A stretch of 64,000 bases of DNA from the human T2T-CHM13v2.0 reference genome, Homo sapiens. Location: NCBI RefSeq assembly GCF_009914755.1, contig NC_060938.1, one strand, 5' to 3'. Numbering within the stretch: position 1 is the first letter of the stretch; every line of letters begins with the position of its first letter. The position numbers and the translations under genes are program-made. This document shows, piece by piece, positions 9,308 through 52,400 of this stretch. The notes beneath the pieces were generated by a model that was given only the letters and a program-made list of their open reading frames with translations, did not search any database and was not told the origin of the DNA.

Positions 9308-9577
<270 letters not shown>

Positions 9578-31914: not shown

Positions 31915-32202
<288 letters not shown>

Positions 32203-40646: not shown

Positions 40647-43600
40647 ATGACAGTATGTAAGAAACCATTTTTCAGAATTCTGCAAAACAACCCTGGGGAA
40701 AAAAAAATGAATGTCATGGTCTGAAAAAGAAAACCTTTTTCAAATTCTTTATGATATTCACTAAACCCAAAGTCAAGAGGTATCTTAGCAAATATTCTCA
40801 AGCTCCAAAGATGTAACCTCCACATTTTGACTACAGAACTCTTAGTGAAACACATATATTATCATGTCATCTCTGTTTTCTTAAAATATCTGATGGCTTG
40901 CTTCCCCACCAACTACAGCCAAAGTCCTAACCAAGCATACAGGGCTCTTTATGGTGGAATCCTGCTCCAATCTTACTACCGTCCTCCAACCATGCCTTCC
41001 AATAACATCACCTTTCTCACCACCTAAGCTTGCCATGTTCTCCCATTACTCTTTGCCTTCACACATGCTTTTCCTTTTTACTGGCATGTCCCATCTTCCC
41101 TTTCTCTGTCTAGTCATCACTGATTTATCTGTCAAAGCACAGATTATCCTTCTTTCTACCATGAATACAGTATAGACACAGCTTTCTCATAGAATTTAGT
41201 AATACATAGAAGAAAATGAGAGTAAGAGGTGTTGTAATTTGTTGTTGTTGTTTTTAAATAATAACCAGAAATAGTAACACAGAATTATCAATAGATATTT
41301 CAGACTTGGTTTCAACCATAAAATCATTCTTTACTTTTTTTAATGAACACCTTCCTTTATGCTCAACATATAAATTAGATATAAGCAGAATTATGCTGAC
41401 AGAAGCTTCGCTGGAAAGGCAGACTCCCAGGCAGGATTGCTTAGAGCACATTCAGTCATTCATTTAGCTGATGATTATTAAGCACTGGTTACGTGTTAGT
41501 TATGTGCCTGGTACTATACAGGCCCTCCAGATCCATCAGCAAAAACTCTTATTGAGCCTGCTCCCCTGAAGCATCCAATTAGGCATGGTTTGAAAAGTCA
41601 CTGTTCCTAGTTCACTGCCATTTTACAGATAAAGTGAATGTGTCTCATAAAGGTTATGTGACTTGCTCAAGTCCTCTCAACAAATTACTAGCAAAACCCC
41701 AAACTCTTGAGTTCCAGCTATTAAGCTACGCTCCTTCGTGAAGCTCAACCAGGAAAAAAATATAATATCTGGTACCTTCTCATGTTTTCTGGTTCTCTGT
41801 ACTAAAAAAATTAAAATGCTGATTTTTGAAAATTATTTAAGGTCCAATTGATCAAATCTATAGTTTATTTATTAGGAAACCATAAATGCCCCGCCACTGC
41901 CATAGAACAGCCTAAATTTCATTGCCAATTTATTTCCATCTTTAAGCACCTTTTAATTTCAGCTCCAACAAATGTATCACATACTTCAATATGTTGATAA
42001 AGACATAGGATTCACTGTTAAGTTGTTATATCACATTACTACTCACCCAGAGGAAGACATCTTATTTGAAACACAAGTTTTATTGTATACATGAAAAGGA
42101 CCTGAGCCAGAGGTTAGCATTTGATAAATGTTACTTTCCTTGGGTCCCTTCCCTCTATCACTTTCATGCACTATGGTATCAATAATGTCACAAAACCTTA
42201 GAAGATAAGGGAGTCTAAATATGATAATTAACAGAGAAGGCAATAAATTAAACCAAAATCCTCTAAAGAAATGGTTGACTAGAGAGAGTCAAAGAAAGAA
42301 GGCTTTATCTTCTCACTCGTTCTTTGAATATACTTAAAATGCTTTTTAATATTTATTATATAAAATATGGAAAATAAAAATCATAGAGGAAAAAACTCTT
42401 CCATTATTTACACTTATCTATGTGTAGATACCATCGTTACAAAACTTCAAACTCTACTATTTTATTTCTTGCTATAATGACTCATTATCACATTATAATC
42501 AATTCCTATGCTATGAAATACATATTTTAAAACCAAATTTCAATCCTTGTACAATATCCCATCAAATATTTATGGCACAATTAATTTAACCAGTACATTA
42601 TAATTGGATATCAAGATTTCCAGTATTCCCTTTCATAAATCAAGTTACAACAAATAACCTTGTACCTATATCAGATTGTCTAAGCACAAATTTTTAGAAG
42701 AAAAATTAGTAGGTAAAATGCCAAAACATCTTTAAGGCTGTCGCCAAACTGCATCCTAGAAAAGGTAAACCAAATTACACTCTAACCAACTGTGTATGAG
42801 AGTATGTTGCATGTTCTTAATAATATCTCTCTTTAATCTTCCAAATGCATTTGAAAGAGGAATGGCAATTTCACCTGAAACAAAAGTAGAATTGTATAGT
42901 GTAATGAGGCAGAATCTGGGAGATCTTTAGTCTTAGTGAAGTTATTCTACTACCACTACCCTCTAGCTCAGTGTTCACAGACTGAACACTATTAATGAAG
43001 CTATAACAAATTTCTAATGTGCAAATGGGGATAATGAGGATAATTTCACTTTAAGTGCCTGAAGGTAGTAAACTAAACAAGGCTTCTTCTTGAGGTCTTT
43101 TACTGCTCTAAGTTATTGTATTGATTATCTATAAAATCCTTCTTCAGGAATAATTCAGTATCAGCTATTTCTAATAATAATGAATAAGTTAAATGATCCC
43201 TCTATTTTTAGGACAAAGGAATAAATGCATTAATGACATTTTGATAGACATTGGAGCTACCACCAAATCTCTCCTTCTTTTGACACAATTAAGTTATGCA
43301 CTGTTAATTAATCTCTCTTCATGAATCTAATGGAGCTGGTATTATTAAGTCAGTGAAAGCCAGTGGAGAGAGTCAGGCAAGTGACATTTGCACATAAAAT
43401 ATTTTTACAATCCTTCCTGGGAATGAGGAGCTTAAGTAGCTCTTTACAGGAATTTAATTCTCATTCATTTCTTGGGAAGAAAAGAAAGCTCACCTTTATA
43501 TTTAAAGGAAATAAAAAGTATAACCAGGCAGTCATGCAGTCATGCCAAGCAAAAGGAAGTTGCTCTCTGGATGTCACTCTGACAATCTCTAGGGGTGTCA

Positions 43601-44177
43601 AAACCTCCAAGGAAATAACCCAGGAACAATGTAGTGAATAAAACCAAACCAAATTAACTTCCATTATTTAAAAATAAAAGGTCATATTTAGCAATAAAAG
43701 GCTGCCGCAACCAGTGAAGTATTATAGGTTAAACCTCATTGGTTTCACTTTAGAGATAAAGTTCCTGTGACTAGACTTCATATATAAAAATGAGACCTAA
43801 AGTTTTTGCTTCAGAATCATCGTGAACCAATTCTACCAGGTTTTTCACAATATTAGTTTTGCAGTAACAACAAACAGCAATTGTTACCATTTTTTAACTT
43901 GTTAGGCAGCAAATGTCTTGGGCCACTGGCTTTCCAAAGGCAGGGCTTTGATGAAATTTAGAGCTTCTACTGTGCTTTGCTCTTAATCTCGTGTCTTTAC
44001 TGTCTTACAGGCAGATATTTGACTAAATAACAGTGCTTTTACATACCTGTGAAAGTATTTTCTAAAATTAGAAATATACTTTTAAGTGTATTTACTGCCC
44101 AGAAAAATACAAACAATATTGTTTTCTACTGGCCATGATCTTTTTAGTCCCCATGACAAGTGATGTTCCCATCCTTA

Positions 44178-45290
<1,113 letters not shown>

Positions 45291-46281
45291 TATAAACAAA
45301 GTTACCTATTAAACAAACAGGTAGTATTTAAAGAGAAAAAATAAATACATGAAACAGAAATTAGAGATGCCAAATAAATTATTTCTTGGAATGACTGTGA
45401 TTTTGAAAGTTGATGTTTAAATCTACCAGTCTTCCAATAGAGAGAGCAAAGTAAAGTAAGCTGTCTTTCCAAATTATTTATACAATTTAAGACATATACA
45501 CACACACACAAAACACCAACTGTAGAAAGTAAAGGTAGTCAAAATAGGTCACAGAGTAGTAAATGAAGTAAAGAATATATTGATTGATTATATTTTTTAT
45601 ATTACTTCTAAATCCAAAAAGAATTTGAGAGTTGATGGTATAAAAGAATATATATATATTCAGATACATACATACATATTCTCATATGCCATATGTGTGT
45701 ATATTCATGTGTCTGTGTGCATATAGATTTTTTAAATCAAGTATATATAAAATAACAGCTACAAAGTTATCTTGAAAAGATTGGGAAATTATTAAGTGTA
45801 AGAAAAGCTAAACAAGATAAAACAAAATATAGTTCAGCAATTGAAATCATATTCAAACATTTTTTCACAACACTAACACTTACATAGGTTATAGATTTAT
45901 ATAAGTATATCAGTGTGTATATGTATACATGTACATATATCAGCGTGTATGTGTGAAAAAATATATATATATCAGTGTATGTATGTGTAAACTGACTATG
46001 TAAAATAAAATCAGAAATCTTTCAAAGAGTACAAGCTCTTCCTTTCACTCTCCCACTATGCTGACACTTAACAAAGCAGACCCTGATCGATATGTTTTCA
46101 TTTAGTAAAGCCTGTTACATTATTAGTTATAGTTGAAATAGGATAGCAATATTTGACTGAGCTTTCTGGTAAATTAAACTCTTCATTATAAGTAAAGTTT
46201 GCCTCAGGAATTTAGTCCTCTGGAACCACTGAAATAGACAAAAAAGTATAGTTATTTAAATATTTATATGCACAAGTATGC

Positions 46282-47317
46282 TTCCTAGAATTTTCCATGG
46301 CAGTAATGCATGCATAAATAATGTGTAAGAAACAACATATGCACCATAATAAATATAATTGACATATAGTAGATATAGCAAATACATATTTGACATGTAG
46401 CTGATAGGATGCTGGCTATTCCCATCAAGTGAACCATTTCCATAAGCTCTCTTCACTCTTTTTCATTCTTTTTTCTTCTCAAACCGAATATTTTCAAATG
46501 ACCCATCTTCAAGTTCACAGATTCTCTCTTCTTCCTGACCAAATATGCAGTTGAATTCTCTATTGCATTTTTCACTGTGTTCATTGTATTCTTAAGCTCC
46601 AGAATTCCTGTTTGGTTCTTTTTTGTGACTTTATTTATTGAACTTCTTATTTTGTTCACGTATTACTTTTCTGATGTCTCTGAGTTCTGTGTGTGTGTAT
46701 CTATATATATATTATATATTATATATAATTATATATAACATAATATATTTATTATAATATATAATATATATATACACACATATACATAATATATAATATA
46801 TAATATACTATATATTATATATCATATATCATATATTATATATTATATATAATATAATACATATATTATAGTATATCATATATATATAATATATATATAC
46901 ACACACACACACAACTCGGAGACATCAGAAAAGTAATACGTGAACAAAATAAGAAGTTCAATAAATAAAGTCACAAAAAAGAACCAAACAGGAATTCTGG
47001 AGCTTAAGAATACAATGAACACAGTGAAAAATGCAATAGAGAATTCAACTGCATATTTGCTCAGGAAGAAGAGAGAATCTGTGAACTTGAAGATGGGTCA
47101 TTTGAAAATATTCGGTTTGAGGAGAAAAAAGAATGAAAAAGAGTGAAGAGAGCTTATGGAAATGGTTCACTTGATGGGAATAGCCAGCAGGCTATCAGCT
47201 ACATGTCAAATATGTATTTGCTATATCTACTATATGTCGATTATATTTATTATGGTGCATATGTTGTTTCTTACACATTATTTATGCATGCATTACTGCC
47301 ATGGAAAATTCTAGGAA
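46282..47317. repeat. Long near-perfect inverted duplication: 405-bp arms (46282-46686 and 46913-47317), 226-bp TA/CA-rich spacer
   Basis: Manual base-by-base comparison finds 6 mismatches and no indels. Mirrored ORF pairs appear in the ORF track. The inner ~245 bp of each arm is an L1 ORF1-like fragment (KKNQTGILELKNTM). Confidence 0.97.
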
Positions 47318-47445
47318 TATATTCTATATAATAATATATATTCTAGGAATATATTCTATATAATAATATATTCTAGGAATATATAATATTCCTATATATT
47401 CTAGGAATATATATATATATTCTATATATATTCTAGGAATATATT
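47309..47445. repeat. AT-rich tandem repeat, about 30-bp period, core TTCTAGGAATAT, 5 copies
   Basis: Core at 47309, 47341, 47371, 47399 and 47431. Confidence 0.9.
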
Positions 47446-47537
47446 ATATATATTATATATATATAATGGACATATATATACACATACATACATATACATA
47501 TAATAGCCATAAATATAAATATAAATATATATATATA

Positions 47538-48015
47538 TGGCTATTACTCAAACTGGAAAAGCATGGAATCTTGCCATTTGTGAAAACGTAGAATGAACCT
47601 TGAGGACATTGAGCTAAGTGAAATAAGCCAGATGAATAAAGACTAATACTGCTTGATCTCACCTATATGTGGAATCTATAAAACTCAAACCCATAGAAAC
47701 AGGGTAAAGGGTGGCTACCAGGAGCTGGGGGGGGGGGGGGGGGTGGAAGAAATGGGGAGATGTTTGTCAAAAGATACACACTTGCAGTTATAAAATGAAT
47801 AAGTTCTAGAGACCTAATGTGCACCTTGTTGACTGTAATTAATAATAACTGTCACGACACACACAGAGAACAAAGGTAACTGTGTGAGATGATAGATATG
47901 TTAATTAGCTTGCTTTTGGTAGTCATTCACATATATATCAAATTCTCACATTGCACACTTTGAATACATATAATTTTTGTCAATTATACCTCAATAAAGC
48001 AGAAAAATAAAAAAT
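47538..48015 (+). mobile_element. L1MA-type 3' end with a G17 run
   Basis: GAACCTTGAGGACATTGAGCTAAGTGAAATAAGCCAG ... AATTATACCTCAATAAAGC plus A-rich tail. Confidence 0.8.
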
Positions 48016-48545
48016 AATTTTCTAACATAAAAATTTCAAAAGGTTCTAAAACCATTAAGTATGAAAAAGATAAATTAAAATCATAATAAAATACCAATAC
48101 ACACATCACAGTGGCTAATATGTAAAAGGATGACAATGTATCAAGTCTTGAAGAACATGTAGAACATCCAAAACCCTCGGGTATCCCAGTAGAAATGTCA
48201 AATAGCATACCACTACTCAAAACTCTTTGGTAATTTTCAATAAAACTAAACATCAACCAACACTATAACCCATCAAACCACGTCTTAGGTATATACACTA
48301 AAGAAGTGTGTAGATATGTTATTAAAAAGATATATACAAGAATTTCACAACATTTTTGTTAATAACAGCCAAAAATTAGAAGCAACCCTAATGTCTATCA
48401 GTCATATAATGAACATATAACCCCATTATATTTACAAATTAAATGCTATACACACCGTATGATTCCACTTATATGAAGATCCATGTCAAAATAATGGTTA
48501 CAGGAAACAACCTAAATGCTTACCAAATAATGAATCGGTAAATAA

Positions 48546-48890
<345 letters not shown>

Positions 48891-49932
48891 AAGAATATTC
48901 TTTAGATATAAAAATATAAAGTACTGATTCATGCCACAATATGGATGAACTTTGGAAACAGGTCAAGTGAAGGAATCCAGTAACAAAAGACCACATATTA
49001 TATGATTCCACTTATATGAAATGAGAAGAATAAACAAATCCATAGACACAGAAAATAGAACAGTGGTTGTCAGGGGTGCAGGGGAGGTTGAAATAGAAAG
49101 TAACTGCTTATGGGAATGGGAATTCTTTGGGGGATGATGAAAATGTTCTGGAATTAGATAGTGGTGATTGTTGCATAACCTTGTGGAAATACTAAAAACT
49201 ACTAAATTGTACATTTTTAAATAATGAATTTTATAATATGTGAATTATATCTCAATTTTTAAAATACTGGCTACTTCAGGGAAAAGAGAAGTAATTGCCT
49301 GAACAAGGCATGGAGGAGGCTTCAGAGGACATAAAAATACTTTTTAAAATCTTGATCCTAGTAGCAGTTACATGGTATATACATATGCAAAAATTTATTA
49401 ATCTGCATACTTATGACTTGAACACTTTACATGTGTGCACGTGTATATACCTTTCTATGATAAAATACATGAAAAATTATTACTGTTACTTTCTCCAACC
49501 ACTAAAAATATTGACTTTAGGCAAATTTGATCAAAATTAATTTGCACTATCTGTAGAGAAGAACATCTCATGAGCCATAAGTACTTCGTTTCATTTAACA
49601 ACTACATGGGCCTGGTATAGAGTGTCTACTATATGGGGGACATGTATAGGAGGTTGCATTTAAAAATGGCTCCAAAAAGTTTCCACATGCAGGTTACTTG
49701 CTTATCTCACTAGGAAGACAAGACAAATCATTGGCATTTTGCAACAGGAAGCCAGCTTCAGGGGAAAATATAGGCAGCAGCTCTGAGGGGGGTATATAAA
49801 AGGAATGCTTGGGGAACAATGAGTTGGTTTACATAGGCCAAAGCAAAGTGAAACTAATCAATTATGCAATTATTTAATTAACTTTATGAATTGTGAAACC
49901 TCTATCTTCATGTGGTTAATTCAGCTTTTCTT

Positions 49933-50836
49933 TATTTTTTTGTCATTCCATTAAGTAATTTATTTTGTTATATACTTTTTTTTTTTTTGAGATGGAGTCT
50001 CACTCTGTCACCCAGGCTGGAGTGCAGTGGGGGTTTGTTGTACAGATTATTTCATCAGCCAGGTATTAAGCCTAATACCCATTAGTTATTTTTCCTGATC
50101 CTCTCCCTTCACCCACCCTCCATCTTCCACTAGGCCTCAGTGTGTGGTGTTCACCTCTATGTGTCCATGTGTGCTCATCATTTAGCTCTCCCTTATAAGT
50201 GAGAACATGCAGTATTTGGTTTTCTGTTTCTGCCTTAGTTTGCTCAGGATAATGGCCTTGAGCTCCATCTATGTCCTTGAAAACGACATGATCTCATTCT
50301 TTTTTATGGTTGCATAGTATTTCATGGTGCATATGTACCACATTTTCTTTATTCAATCTATCATTGATGGCTATTTACATTGATTCCATGTCTTTGCTAT
50401 TGTGAATAGTGACAATGAACATATACATGCATGTGTCTTCCTAATAGAATGATTTATATTCTTTGGGGTGTATACCCAGTAATAGGATTACTGGGTCAAA
50501 TTTATATTCTTTGGGGCATATATGCAGTAATGGGATTACTGGGTCAAATGGTATTTCTGTTTTTAGGTCTTTGAGGAATCACCACACTGTCTTCCATGAT
50601 GGTTGAACTAATTTACACTCCCACCAACAGTGTATAAGAGTTCCTTTCTCTCCACAACCTCACCAGCATCTATTACTTTTTGACTTTTTAATAATAGCCA
50701 TTCTGACTGCTGTGAGATGGTATCTTGTTAAATTTGCAAGAAAAAAAAAACCCTTAAAAAAGCGGGCAAAGGACATGAAAAGACACTTTTCAAAAGATGA
50801 CATATGTGCAGCCAACAATCATATGGGAAAAAAAAA
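49933..50836 (-). mobile_element. L1PA-type 3' insertion with 5' inversion; its 3' tip is replaced by a ~40-bp Alu 3' fragment
   Basis: Alu tail 49976-50030; L1 on minus strand 50031-50725; L1 on plus strand about 50730-50840; flanking repeat AGCTTTTCTT (49923-49932 and 50837-50846). Confidence 0.8.
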
Positions 50837-51599
50837 AGCTTTTCTTAAATAACAGGTACATGATAATGATTTCTATAATTAAATATAGGGTACATTATCT
50901 TAACTAACTTTGTATCAATGCTATTGATAAGACTTGAAAACAGAACAGTAAACACTGCTAGTTGTTTACTTAGTAATATATGTGCTATCATAGTAATTAA
51001 AATGCTAGGAACCAAAAATTAGCAAACTTTTCTTATTTGCATGAGCCCATTTTGTAAACACAGGGGAAATATATTTTTTTAACTTTAAGAAATGCCTTTA
51101 AAGCTCATCAGTATTCTACATGTTAGACATCAAACTATCATCTTTTTGAAAGAGCATATTATGCTCACATTATTTAAAGGGGCTTTAGGGCAATAAGCCC
51201 TAACTTGAATTTTAGTTTATGTATTATTTACATTGCTGTCTGTCACCAATGTCTTCAGAGCTGAAAACCTTGACATGTCAGTAATATTATTTATTCAGAC
51301 ATAATTTTCATTATCCATAAAAATAGCCATGAATATCAGAATAAGTAAAAATATCCATGAGTAGCAAAAAAGCTGTCACAGAGTATACAGATTTCATATG
51401 TAAAAGAGACCCTCAAGCATCTCTTAAAGCCTCGAATAATTCTATCCGTCTCAAATCCTGCAAACATGATCTACTTTGTGCCCATGGCAGATCGAAGACA
51501 GCAAATTGATAAAAATGTTCCTGGAGGTGAATGTACTGATGGTAAGGAAAAACCATAGACCACAGCCTAATGCCAAAGAAATATTCAAAAAGCTAAAGC

Positions 51600-52400
51600 A
51601 TAATAATGAACATGTGGAAACCAAAGTTAAAAACACAATAACATTTTCAATGTGTCCACAGAAAATGAAATACTTAGGTATAAATGTAATAAAATATGGA
51701 CAAGAGCTGTATCCTAAAAATTACATTTGATGAAATTGATGAAAGAAATCAAGGAATTTGTGGAGAGATATACCATGTTAATAAATTGGAAGGCCTAAAA
51801 CAGTAAATATGTGAATTGTCCCTAAATTAACCTTTACATTTATGCAACTCTTATAAAAATCCCAGAAAATTTTCTTTGTAGATATTGATAAGCTTATTCT
51901 AAAATTCATACATTAAGGCACTACACCTAGAAGACCTAAGACCACTGAAAAACGATTAAGGAGGAGAAATCACTCTATCCAATGTTAGGCATACCTTATA
52001 GCTATAGTAATTAAGACAGCGTGATGTTGGCAGAGGGACAGACACATAGATCGATGGAACAGGATAGAAAACCCAGAAATATACGAACACAGATATGCTC
52101 AACTAAGTTTTTACCAAGGAGCAAAAGCATTTTAACAGAGGAAAGATAGTATTTCAACCAACTGTGCTGGAGAAATTAGACATCATCTAGCAAAAAGCAA
52201 ACAATCAAAAAAGCTTAACCTCAACCTAACCCTCAAACCTTACATACACATTTTCAAAAATGTATCAGGACTTAAGTGTACTACGTAAAATGAAAAAAAA
52301 AAAAGCTTTTTAGAAAAAGAGAAGAAAATATTTAGGACCAGGGCCAGTTAGAGTCCTAAACCTTGACACCAAATGTACAATCCATAAAATGAATTTTATC
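51600..52400 (+). mobile_element. Old L1M ORF2 fragment
   Basis: KMKYLGIN motif in ORF 51476-51730; GACACATAGATCGATGGAACAGGATAGAAAACCCAGAAAT. Confidence 0.75.

What the first reader, a model, noticed from the sequence alone, without database searches (positions are those of the whole stretch)
46282..47317. 1-kb near-perfect palindrome (405-bp arms, ~98.5% identity) inside a KCNH5 intron
Seen: 46282-46686 is the reverse complement of 46913-47317, with 6 mismatches and no indels. The arms continue imperfectly into (TG)n/(CA)n and a TA-rich 226-bp spacer that holds its own nested fold-back (ATATACTATA 46803-46812 / TATAGTATAT 46867-46876). Each arm joins an old L1 ORF1-like fragment to about 160 bp of apparently unique DNA, so two independent L1 insertions do not explain it. 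Inference: a recent fold-back duplication, or an older one homogenised by arm-to-arm conversion. The KCNH5 pre-mRNA could form a ~400-bp almost perfect dsRNA, a likely ADAR substrate. The DNA could extrude a cruciform like known palindromic AT-rich repeats and might invert or delete polymorphically.
Basis: partly seen in the sequence, partly recalled or inferred. Interest (0 to 1): 0.8.

Follow-up and report, generated by a model that had tools for sequence, protein, structure and literature searches.

The report
Intronic 1-kb inverted duplication in KCNH5
A real, one-of-a-kind 1-kb DNA palindrome sits in an intron of the human potassium-channel gene KCNH5; it most likely arose when DNA copying folded back at a TA-repeat, and it belongs to a rare but already described class of long near-perfect inverted repeats with no shown function.

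Summary
46282-46686 is the exact-register reverse complement of 46913-47317: 405 nt, 6 mismatches, no indels. It extends to 456-nt arms at 96%.

In the whole T2T genome the full arm occurs only at these two places. Its inner ~248 bp is an old L1 ORF1 piece, 72-80% identical to other copies. Its outer ~157 bp matches nothing else. Two separate L1 insertions, a transposon family and chance are therefore excluded.

Derived changes lie on both arms, and the centre is asymmetric. That argues for a real duplication roughly 5-15 Myr old, or an older one kept similar by conversion.

The best mechanism is fold-back or template-switch copying started in the self-complementary (TA)n tract.

KCNH5-sense RNA folds into one long hairpin of -782 kcal/mol. 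Editing was not testable here.

A PATRR-like cruciform is unlikely. The arms are only 67% AT, the centre is 124-226 nt and imperfect, and a 9-bp central spacer with four nearby mismatches already abolishes PATRR22 extrusion.

Published scans count 197 such repeats in RefSeq pre-mRNAs and 2,018 genome-wide. This locus was not named in anything I could search.

The parts
46282..46686 (.). Left arm of the palindrome (405 nt)
   Evidence: Reverse complement of 46913-47317 with 6 mismatches and no indels. Second-best genome hit of the right arm, 99%, E 1.5e-200.
46282..46438 (.). Outer part of the left arm, found nowhere else in the genome
   Evidence: Mirror of 47161-47317. A whole-genome search with 47155-47317 at E<=10 returned only the two arms: 2 candidates, 2 matches.
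46439..46686 (-). Old L1 ORF1 fragment (about aa 62-148 of ORF1p), antisense to the + strand
   Evidence: Mirror of 46913-47160. BLASTN to L1 copies L003-L008 at 75-77%.
46687..46912 (.). Spacer: (TG)n, TA-rich microsatellite, (CA)n. 226 nt, 88.9% AT. Its outer ~50 nt on each side still belong to the palindrome.
   Evidence: TRF finds period-2 TA at 46698-46899. As ssDNA it folds at -44.9 kcal/mol, z -5.35 against 200 shuffles.
46913..47317 (.). Right arm of the palindrome (405 nt)
46913..47160 (+). Old L1 ORF1 fragment (coiled-coil region, about aa 62-148), sense on the + strand
   Evidence: 38 other genomic loci match arm positions 1-~249 at 72-80%. In 18 of 26 such loci examined, tblastn with the ORF1p of a young L1 copy hits at or just downstream of the arm-homologous piece, e.g. 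L043 aa 1-158, L038 aa 89-329, L005 aa 89-321. A direct tblastn of ORF1p onto the window was not significant (E 3.6).
47161..47317 (.). Outer part of the right arm, found nowhere else in the genome (66.9% AT)
   Evidence: only the two arms hit. Sensitive BLASTN against 26 L1 loci gave only AT-rich low-complexity matches.
47308..47464 (+). Tandem array of ~5 units (period ~32) abutting the right arm. Each unit starts with ATTCTAGGAA, the last 10 bases of the arm. It continues as an AT-rich microsatellite to ~47556.
   Evidence: TRF reports 47308-47464, period 32, 5.1 copies, 84% matches. Sequence. 47318-47556 is 84.9% AT. It may be a junction scar; this is an inference.
47557..48017 (+). Old L1 3' end (ORF2 C-terminus about 47563-47673, 3'UTR with a G17 run, AATAAA and an A-rich tail at 48003-48017). 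Same orientation as the ORF1 piece of the right arm.
   Evidence: Thousands of genomic candidates at 67-82%. tblastn of the ORF2 C-terminal part onto loci L016, L017, L018, L020 and L021 lies collinear with the window match. Sequence.

Best explanation
This is a genuine, single-locus inverted duplication (a quasi-palindrome), with no evidence of function. An ancestral KCNH5 intron carried a compound (CA)n/(TA)n microsatellite. Next to it lay a 5'-truncated relic of an ancient L1 (ORF1 coiled-coil region), followed by ordinary unique intronic DNA. (TA)n is its own reverse complement. A nascent or resected 3' end lying in that tract could therefore fold back, prime on its own strand and copy at least 456 nt in inverted orientation. 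It then returned to the original template or was joined to the other end (fold-back / snap-back / template-switch synthesis). The result is: arm, TA-rich loop, inverted arm. The arms then diverged by 6 substitutions, with derived changes on both arms, and the microsatellite centre slipped into asymmetry. With recalled human rates of 0.5-1.2e-9 per site per year, this puts the event about 5-15 Myr ago if no arm-to-arm conversion occurred. Shown here: the structure, its uniqueness in the genome, its composite L1 + unique content, derived changes on both arms, and the folding potential. Inferred: the fold-back mechanism, the date, and neutrality. Expected consequences, all inferred: whenever the intron is transcribed, the KCNH5 pre-mRNA can form a ~405-450-bp near-perfect hairpin, which would be a strong ADAR substrate confined to the nucleus. 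The DNA is probably stable, because the long imperfect centre blocks extrusion of the whole palindrome as a cruciform.
For: Exact 405-nt arms with 6 mismatches and no indels. Arms extend to 456 nt at 96% into (TG)n/(CA)n/TA. The full arm occurs only twice in the 3.1-Gb genome; its inner 248 nt is an old L1 at 72-80% to 38 other loci; its outer 163 nt hits only the two arms. ORF1 identity of the inner part comes from 18 of 26 related loci. The symmetry axis (46799/46800) lies in a TA microsatellite. Polarising with 26 L1 copies shows 46918 derived on the right arm (outgroups A 23/26) and 47122/46477 derived on the left arm (outgroups G 21/26), so each arm carries a change of its own. Jukes-Cantor distance is 0.0124-0.015. 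The anatomy of arms, single-copy spacer and short inverted homology at the spacer edge matches the fold-back model for human inverted duplications (PMC3907307, passages). RNA MFE is -781.6 kcal/mol as one long hairpin; ssDNA MFE is -517.8 kcal/mol. Long near-perfect intronic inverted repeats are a described class, and the few that are expressed are often heavily edited (PMC7006430).
Against: No outgroup sequence could be examined, so the date and the absence of gene conversion are untested. There is no microhomology at the outer edges: 0 of the first 7 outward bases pair. The mechanism is therefore inferred from the centre alone. Which arm is the original is unresolved. The L1 3' end at 47557-48017 has the same orientation as the right-arm ORF1 piece, which hints that the right arm is ancestral. 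The tandem array beginning with the arm's last 10 bases at the right edge looks like a junction scar, which hints that the left arm is ancestral. No expression, editing or population data were available. A templated snap-back copy of ~450 nt is much longer than the short templated insertions I recall for end joining.
Confidence: 0.72

Rival explanations
1. The duplication is old (tens of Myr), and the arms have been kept 98.5% alike by recurrent arm-to-arm gene conversion, as in larger human palindromes.
For: The L1 relic inside the arms is ancient, at 72-80% to its relatives, so the locus had a long time in which to duplicate. Conversion between close inverted repeats is established knowledge for the Y and X palindromes (recalled). 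The microsatellite centre is much more decayed than the arms.
Against: Nothing in the sequence requires it. The six differences are spread along the arm in perfect runs of 78, 47, 0, 67, 61, 141 and 5, and derived states sit on both arms, as simple divergence predicts. Fast slippage alone explains a decayed microsatellite centre.
Confidence: 0.18
2. The hairpin has a role in KCNH5 RNA biology. It might be a hyper-edited, nuclear-retained or splicing-modulating dsRNA, or a source of small RNAs, and it might be maintained by selection.
For: A very stable predicted pre-mRNA hairpin. Three of the six mismatches in KCNH5-sense RNA are C.A pairs; that an A opposite C is a favoured ADAR editing context is recalled. 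Published work reports that expressed long near-perfect duplexes are often heavily edited (PMC7006430).
Against: No Rfam family comes near threshold in or around the arms; the best hit is mir-297 at 37.9 bits against a gathering score of 90, and it lies in an AT/CA-rich flank. The arms are an L1 relic plus anonymous DNA. Such structures are reported as depleted and mostly unexpressed. No conservation data were available. No paper links KCNH5 to such an element.
Confidence: 0.05
3. It is an assembly artefact: a chimeric fold-back read carried into the T2T-CHM13 consensus.
For: Palindromes are a known failure mode of library preparation and cloning (PMC4057610, passages).
Against: An artefactual fold-back would be a perfect palindrome. 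Here the arms differ at 6 sites, with derived states on both arms. The 226-nt centre is asymmetric, with a different (TG)/(CA) repeat number on the two sides.
Confidence: 0.02
4. It is a mobile element with long terminal inverted repeats (foldback-type transposon), or two independent L1 insertions head to head, or an L1 twin-priming inversion.
For: The arms contain L1 sequence in opposite orientations.
Against: It is single-locus in the genome. The bases flanking the two outer edges show no matching direct repeat. Both arms carry the same L1 segment and the same non-L1 157 bp at 98.5%, whereas independent L1 copies of this family are 72-80% alike. As I recall it, twin priming joins different, not identical, L1 segments and leaves a poly(A) tail and target-site duplications.
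Confidence: 0.01

Closest known systems
[quoted passage not shown] 2020, PMC7006430; dsRNAscan preprint, PMC11838218)
   Same: 405-nt arms at 98.5%, both inside one RefSeq pre-mRNA, intronic, built partly of LINE sequence. These papers count 197 such structures in RefSeq transcripts. They count 2,018 genome-wide, mostly inverted LINEs, 88% intergenic and 74% unedited.
   Different: The arms here are not two separate LINE insertions. They are one duplicated composite of an L1 relic plus unique DNA. The locus is not among the 10 chr14 rows of Barak's Table S8 (the KCNH5 hg19 position is recalled as ~63.2-63.6 Mb). The probable reason is that a self-BLAST returns one 1050-nt alignment through the spacer at 93.5%, below their 96% cut-off. 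The dsRNAscan tables were not readable: only one supplementary text file is held, and it has no 'KCNH5'.
Palindromic AT-rich repeats (PATRR11, 22, 17, 8, 3...)
   Same: Several-hundred-bp near-perfect palindromic arms, an AT-rich centre, a non-repeated unique locus, and an intronic position like PATRR17, PATRR3 and PATRR8 (PMC7999016, section 4.3).
   Different: PATRRs are >90% AT throughout and symmetric to the centre. Here the arms are 66.5-66.9% AT, and 124-226 nt of imperfect TA tract separate them. A 9-bp spacer plus 4 mismatches already abolishes PATRR22 extrusion and instability (PMC1851657). No translocation or size polymorphism is known for this site.
Fold-back inverted duplications of human chromosomes (Hermetz et al. 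2014, PMC3907307)
   Same: An inverted and a direct copy separated by a single-copy spacer, with short inverted homology at the spacer edge. Here the self-complementary (TA)n supplies that homology.
   Different: Those events duplicate kilobases to megabases, have spacers of 766 bp-70 kb, and end in terminal deletions or translocations. This one is a 0.4-kb interstitial copy with both flanks intact, so a second switch or end-joining step must be added.
Inverted Alu pairs, the usual ADAR substrates
   Same: Intronic inverted repeats giving intramolecular dsRNA. One such pair, 44250-44436 / 48576-48762, brackets this locus.
   Different: That Alu pair is 187 nt at 81% and 4.1 kb apart. The palindrome is 405-456 nt at 96-98.5% and 124-226 nt apart, so the duplex is far longer and tighter.

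Membership tests
Long nearly perfect inverted duplicated sequence in a pre-mRNA (Barak 2020 definition) | Arms longer than 300 bp | tested here: met
   405 nt exact register; 456 nt extended.
Long nearly perfect inverted duplicated sequence in a pre-mRNA (Barak 2020 definition) | Identity above 96% | tested here: met
   399/405 = 98.5% for the arms. One self-BLAST alignment run through the spacer gives 93.5% over 1050 nt, which would fail their filter.
Long nearly perfect inverted duplicated sequence in a pre-mRNA (Barak 2020 definition) | Both arms inside one RefSeq transcript | not tested
   Taken from the supplied RefSeq table: KCNH5 lies on the - strand, the nearest exons are 9356-9552 and 31950-32202, and the gene spans the whole window.
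Long nearly perfect inverted duplicated sequence in a pre-mRNA (Barak 2020 definition) | Expressed and A-to-I edited | not testable with these tools
   No RNA-seq or editing database is available. Literature searches found nothing on KCNH5.
Palindromic AT-rich repeat (PATRR) | Near-perfect palindrome of several hundred bp | tested here: met
Palindromic AT-rich repeat (PATRR) | More than 90% AT | tested here: not met
   Arms are 66.5-66.9% AT. Only the spacer reaches 88.9%. The definition comes from PMC7999016.
Palindromic AT-rich repeat (PATRR) | Symmetry up to the centre (no or minimal spacer), which is needed for cruciform extrusion | tested here: not met
   124 nt (lenient) to 226 nt (strict) of imperfect centre. 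The criterion comes from PMC1851657.
Palindromic AT-rich repeat (PATRR) | Breakpoint of constitutional translocations; size-polymorphic in people | not testable with these tools
   No population or cytogenetic data. No paper was found with KCNH5 + inverted repeat.
Fold-back / template-switch inverted duplication | Inverted copy next to its template, with a single-copy spacer | tested here: met
   The arms are the only two copies in the genome.
Fold-back / template-switch inverted duplication | Short inverted homology at the fold-back point | tested here: met
   The axis lies in a TA microsatellite. Many nested TA-rich inverted pairs are present. The spacer folds better than all 200 shuffles.
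Fold-back / template-switch inverted duplication | Ancestral single-arm state in an outgroup | not testable with these tools
   No primate genomes are held.
Foldback transposon / MITE with long terminal inverted repeats | Multiple copies in the genome and target-site duplications | tested here: not met
   Only this locus carries the full arm or its outer 163 bp. No matching direct repeat lies at the edges.
L1 twin-priming inversion / two independent L1 insertions | Arms are L1 only, different L1 segments or independent copies, with a poly(A) tail | tested here: not met
   Both arms hold the same ORF1 segment plus the same 157 bp of non-L1 DNA at 98.5%. No A-tail lies at either arm end.

The most novel reading that the evidence does not exclude
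The palindrome is a hominid-lineage snap-back insertion. It created a ~450-bp almost perfect intronic dsRNA in a neuron-expressed ion-channel gene (the expression pattern is recalled). It is hyper-edited in brain and is polymorphic in people, through loss of an arm, spacer flips or length variants. Haplotypes would then differ in KCNH5 pre-mRNA processing or in the load of immunogenic dsRNA when the intron is retained. The tandem array at its right edge would be the preserved scar of iterative templated synthesis at the novel junction, giving a rare natural record of how such palindromes are born at (TA)n tracts.
Probability: 0.07. Interest if true: 0.6.

Novelty: new member of a known kind. 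Interest (0 to 1): 0.33.

Why it matters
Long, nearly perfect intramolecular duplexes are scarce in human genes. Published scans count 197 in RefSeq pre-mRNAs and about 2,000 genome-wide. They are of interest as the strongest potential self-ligands for ADAR and MDA5.

Most of them are two LINE copies that landed head to head. This one is a clean example of another origin: an in-situ inverted duplication centred on a TA microsatellite, copying L1-relic and unique DNA together. The breakpoints are well enough preserved to study the mechanism.

It also shows a blind spot in self-BLAST catalogues. A close-spaced palindrome aligns to itself as one lower-identity hit and drops out of a >96% list.

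If comparison with apes dates it to the hominid lineage, or if pangenomes show it to be polymorphic, it would be a handy natural test case. It could be used to study palindrome birth, stability with a long imperfect centre, and hyper-editing in neurons. As it stands it is an ordinary, probably neutral, structural relic.

Tried and rejected
(1) Pfam on the three longest open frames of the right arm gave no L1 domain, only chance hits far below cut-off.

(2) BLASTN of 43000-52000 against a young L1 copy (L028) did not hit the arms; it found only the L1 3' end at 50080-50825 and A-rich tails. tblastn of that copy's ORF1p onto the window was not significant (E 3.6). The ORF1 identity had to be shown indirectly, through 26 intermediate old copies.

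(3) I tested whether the right-arm ORF1 piece and the L1 3' end at 47557-48017 are one internally deleted element, which would mark the right arm as ancestral. Only 1 of 26 related loci (L007) shows a similar adjacency, and its junction is at a different base. A combined query found no locus with both parts among the 40 scored. Left unresolved.

(4) I first guessed from memory that 47557-47662 was L1 in - orientation. tblastn onto related loci showed + orientation, so the guess was dropped.

(5) CpG-decay reasoning for the mismatch at 46918 was wrong. The outgroups show that the right arm gained the G.

(6) L044 appeared to extend homology through the 'unique' part. On inspection this is AT-microsatellite alignment only.

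(7) Rfam at E<=1 gave only sub-threshold AT/CA-rich miRNA-family hits in the flanks.

(8) Barak Table S8 does not list the locus. I do not read this as absence from hg19, because their method explains the miss.

PMC1310899 and PMC2818517, both on evolution of the NF1 palindrome, are not held.

(10) No target-site duplication or microhomology at the outer edges.

Full report
**Observation**

46282-46686 is the reverse complement of 46913-47317 over 405 nt, with 6 mismatches and no indels. The mismatches are at 46360/47239, 46408/47191, 46409/47190, 46477/47122, 46539/47060 and 46681/46918.

None of the first 7 bases outside the arms pair, so the outer edges are sharp. Inward, the repeat finder extends the arms to 46282-46737 / 46862-47317 (456 nt, 96%, 124 nt apart). 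This means the arms run into (TG)n / (CA)n and the first part of the TA tract.

The strict spacer, 46687-46912, is 226 nt and 88.9% AT. The arms are 66.5-66.9% AT.

Chance is excluded: log10 P of >=399/405 complementary positions per placement is -215. Across the 64-kb window only 5 inverted pairs >=120 nt within 5 kb exist, and the next best is 153 nt at 84%.

**What the arms are made of**

The T2T genome that holds the window could be searched.
- The right arm finds itself (100%) and the left arm (99%) at full length. It also finds 38 other loci that match only arm positions 1 to ~249, at 72-80% (1125 first-look candidates, 40 scored).
- The outer 163 bp (47155-47317), searched alone at E<=10, finds only the two arms.

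The multi-copy inner part is L1 ORF1, but this needed an indirect proof.
- Pfam sees nothing in the arm's frames.
- A young L1 copy (L028) does not align to the arms at DNA level.
- Its ORF1p gives only E 3.6 on the window.
- In 18 of 26 other genomic copies of the arm-homologous piece, that ORF1p aligns at or immediately downstream of the piece, in the same orientation. Examples are L043 aa 1-158, L038 aa 89-329 and L005 aa 89-321.

This places the arm's L1 piece at about aa 62-148 of ORF1p, the coiled-coil region. It is sense on the + strand in the right arm and antisense in the left arm.

So each arm is a composite: (CA)n, then a 5'-truncated old L1 ORF1 relic, then ~157 bp found nowhere else.

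**Surroundings**

- Left of the palindrome (45300-46281) there is no L1, only a low-complexity tract with weak matches.
- Right of it, a ~5-unit tandem array (47308-47464, period ~32) begins inside the arm. Each unit starts with ATTCTAGGAA, the arm's last 10 bases, and one unit contains a small inverted copy of the motif.
- The array grades into an AT microsatellite up to ~47556.
- Then comes an old L1 3' end in + orientation (47557-48017). It has the ORF2 C-terminus, a 3'UTR with a G17 run, AATAAA and an A-rich tail.
- An inverted Alu pair, 44250-44436 / 48576-48762 (81%), brackets the whole region.

**Which arm is the original?**

I could not settle this, and the two hints point in opposite directions.
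- The same-orientation L1 3' end on the right hints that the right arm is in its ancestral context. However, only 1 of 26 related loci (L007) shows a comparable ORF1-piece / 3'-end adjacency, its junction differs, and no other locus carries both parts among the 40 scored.
- The array at the right edge looks like the messy scar of a novel junction, while the left edge is clean. This hints that the left arm is ancestral.

An outgroup genome is needed.

**Real, and moderately young or converted**

Using 26 L1 copies as outgroups:
- The right arm carries the derived base at 46918 (outgroups A in 23 of 26).
- The left arm carries the derived base at 46477/47122 (outgroups G in 21 of 26).
- 47060 is ambiguous.
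- The 47190/47191 columns lie beyond secure L1 homology.

Changes private to each arm, plus an asymmetric centre with different (TG)/(CA) repeat numbers, are not what a fold-back read artefact would give.

The Jukes-Cantor distance is 0.0124-0.015. With recalled human rates of 0.5-1.2e-9 per site per year, this gives about 5-15 Myr. That is far younger than the L1 relic, unless arm-to-arm conversion has erased older divergence. I weight the simple recent-duplication reading higher because nothing in the data calls for conversion.

**Mechanism**

The symmetry axis (46799/46800) lies in a TA microsatellite, which is self-complementary. The spacer alone folds as ssDNA at -44.9 kcal/mol, better than all 200 shuffles (z -5.35).

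The anatomy consists of an inverted copy beside its template, a single-copy loop, and short inverted homology at the loop edge. That is the anatomy of fold-back inverted duplication described for human chromosomes (PMC3907307, passages). Here it is scaled down to an interstitial 0.45-kb copy.

I infer four steps:
1. A 3' end in the TA tract snapped back.
2. It primed on its own strand.
3. It copied >=456 nt.
4. It then switched back or was end-joined.

There is no microhomology at the outer edges, so this last step is not documented by the sequence.

Two other origins are ruled out.
- A transposon with long inverted termini is excluded by single-locus occurrence and the absence of flanking direct repeats.
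- Twin priming is excluded because both arms hold the same L1 segment plus the same non-L1 DNA.

**Consequences**

KCNH5 is on the - strand according to the supplied annotation.

*RNA.* The - strand RNA of 46262-47337 folds into one long hairpin, MFE -781.6 kcal/mol, with the TA centre as a branched tip.
- Perfect runs are 78, 47, 67, 61 and 141 bp.
- In RNA sense the six mismatches are C.A (three), C.C, C.U and G.G.

By established knowledge such a duplex would be edited promiscuously by ADARs if transcribed. Published scans say that the few expressed human structures of this kind are often heavily edited and that most are barely expressed (PMC7006430: abstract, passages and Methods). I could not test expression or editing. 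Rfam gives nothing near threshold.

*DNA.* I disagree with the PATRR analogy, for four reasons.
- PATRRs are >90% AT and symmetric to the centre (PMC7999016, section 4.3).
- A 9-bp spacer with four nearby mismatches abolishes extrusion at physiological conditions and instability of PATRR22 (PMC1851657, passages).
- Inverted Alus with a 52-bp spacer no longer stall eukaryotic forks (PMC7999016, passage).
- The arm/spacer ratio here is 1.8-3.7, against the >16 quoted for strong recombinogenicity (PMC5414712, passages).

The ssDNA hairpin is very stable once formed (-517.8 kcal/mol). Its nucleation across a 124-226-nt imperfect centre should nevertheless be rare. That fits the element's survival with sharp edges.

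**Comparison with what is known, and novelty**

The element meets the published definition of a long (>300 bp), nearly perfect (>96%) inverted duplicated sequence within a pre-mRNA.
- There are 197 such structures in RefSeq transcripts (PMC7006430).
- There are 2,018 genome-wide, mostly inverted LINEs, 88% intergenic (PMC11838218, section read).

It is not among the 10 chr14 rows of Barak's Table S8, judged against a recalled hg19 position of KCNH5 of about 63.2-63.6 Mb. The likely reason is technical. A self-BLAST of a close-spaced palindrome returns one alignment through the spacer, 1050 nt at 93.5%, which falls below their 96% filter (Methods).

Literature coverage was as follows.
- A search for KCNH5 + 'inverted repeat' found 1 paper, unrelated by its title.
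- A search for KCNH5 + A-to-I + intron also found 1 paper, unrelated by its title.
- The one supplementary text file held for the dsRNAscan preprint has no 'KCNH5'; its tables were not visible and may list the locus.

I therefore file it as a new member of a known kind. It has an instructive origin (in-situ duplication at a TA tract rather than two LINE insertions) and no evidence of function.

**Verdict**

- Observation: confirmed.
- Fold-back duplication: well supported by anatomy.
- dsRNA formation: a sound but untested prediction.
- PATRR-like cruciform behaviour: unlikely.
- Interest: modest. It would rise if ape comparisons or pangenomes show a lineage-specific or polymorphic event, or if brain RNA shows hyper-editing.

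Noticed in passing
window 47308-47464 (to ~47556): A tandem array of ~5 units, each beginning with the last 10 bases of the right arm (ATTCTAGGAA). One unit holds a small perfect inverted copy of the motif. It may be a scar of iterative templated synthesis at the palindrome's junction, or a later minisatellite expansion.
   Followed up: partly
window 44250-44436 and 48576-48762: An inverted Alu pair (187 nt, 81%, 4.1 kb apart) brackets the palindrome. The KCNH5 pre-mRNA could therefore form nested duplexes here. Further Alu pieces lie at 49959-50030.
   Followed up: no
window 47727-47743: A run of 17 G inside the old L1 3'UTR at 47557-48017. It matches the G-rich tract that I recall as typical of L1 3'UTRs.
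   Followed up: no
L044 (G000:C7:72977000-72979600), locus positions ~1170-864: Another old L1 copy has a long AT-rich microsatellite starting at almost the same ORF1 position where the window's arm leaves L1 homology. This could be coincidence, or this ORF1 region may tend to seed AT microsatellites.
   Followed up: partly
L007 (G000:C3:19824965-19828211), locus positions ~1750-1180: An old L1 copy in which the same ORF1 segment is followed after ~47 bp by the ORF2 C-terminus and 3'UTR. This resembles the order seen in the window (ORF1 piece ... L1 3' end), but the junction base differs.
   Followed up: partly
window 45899-45986 and 45648-45728: CA/TA-rich tandem tracts give sub-threshold Rfam hits to AT/CA-rich miRNA families (mir-297 at 37.9 bits against 90; mir-3149 at 31.1 against 100). 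These are most likely low-complexity noise.
   Followed up: no
window 50080-50825 (- strand) and 51602-51910 (+ strand): Further L1 relics: a 3' ORF2/3'UTR piece at 72.6% to a young L1, and an ORF2 piece covering aa 745-848. They are unrelated to the palindrome.
   Followed up: no
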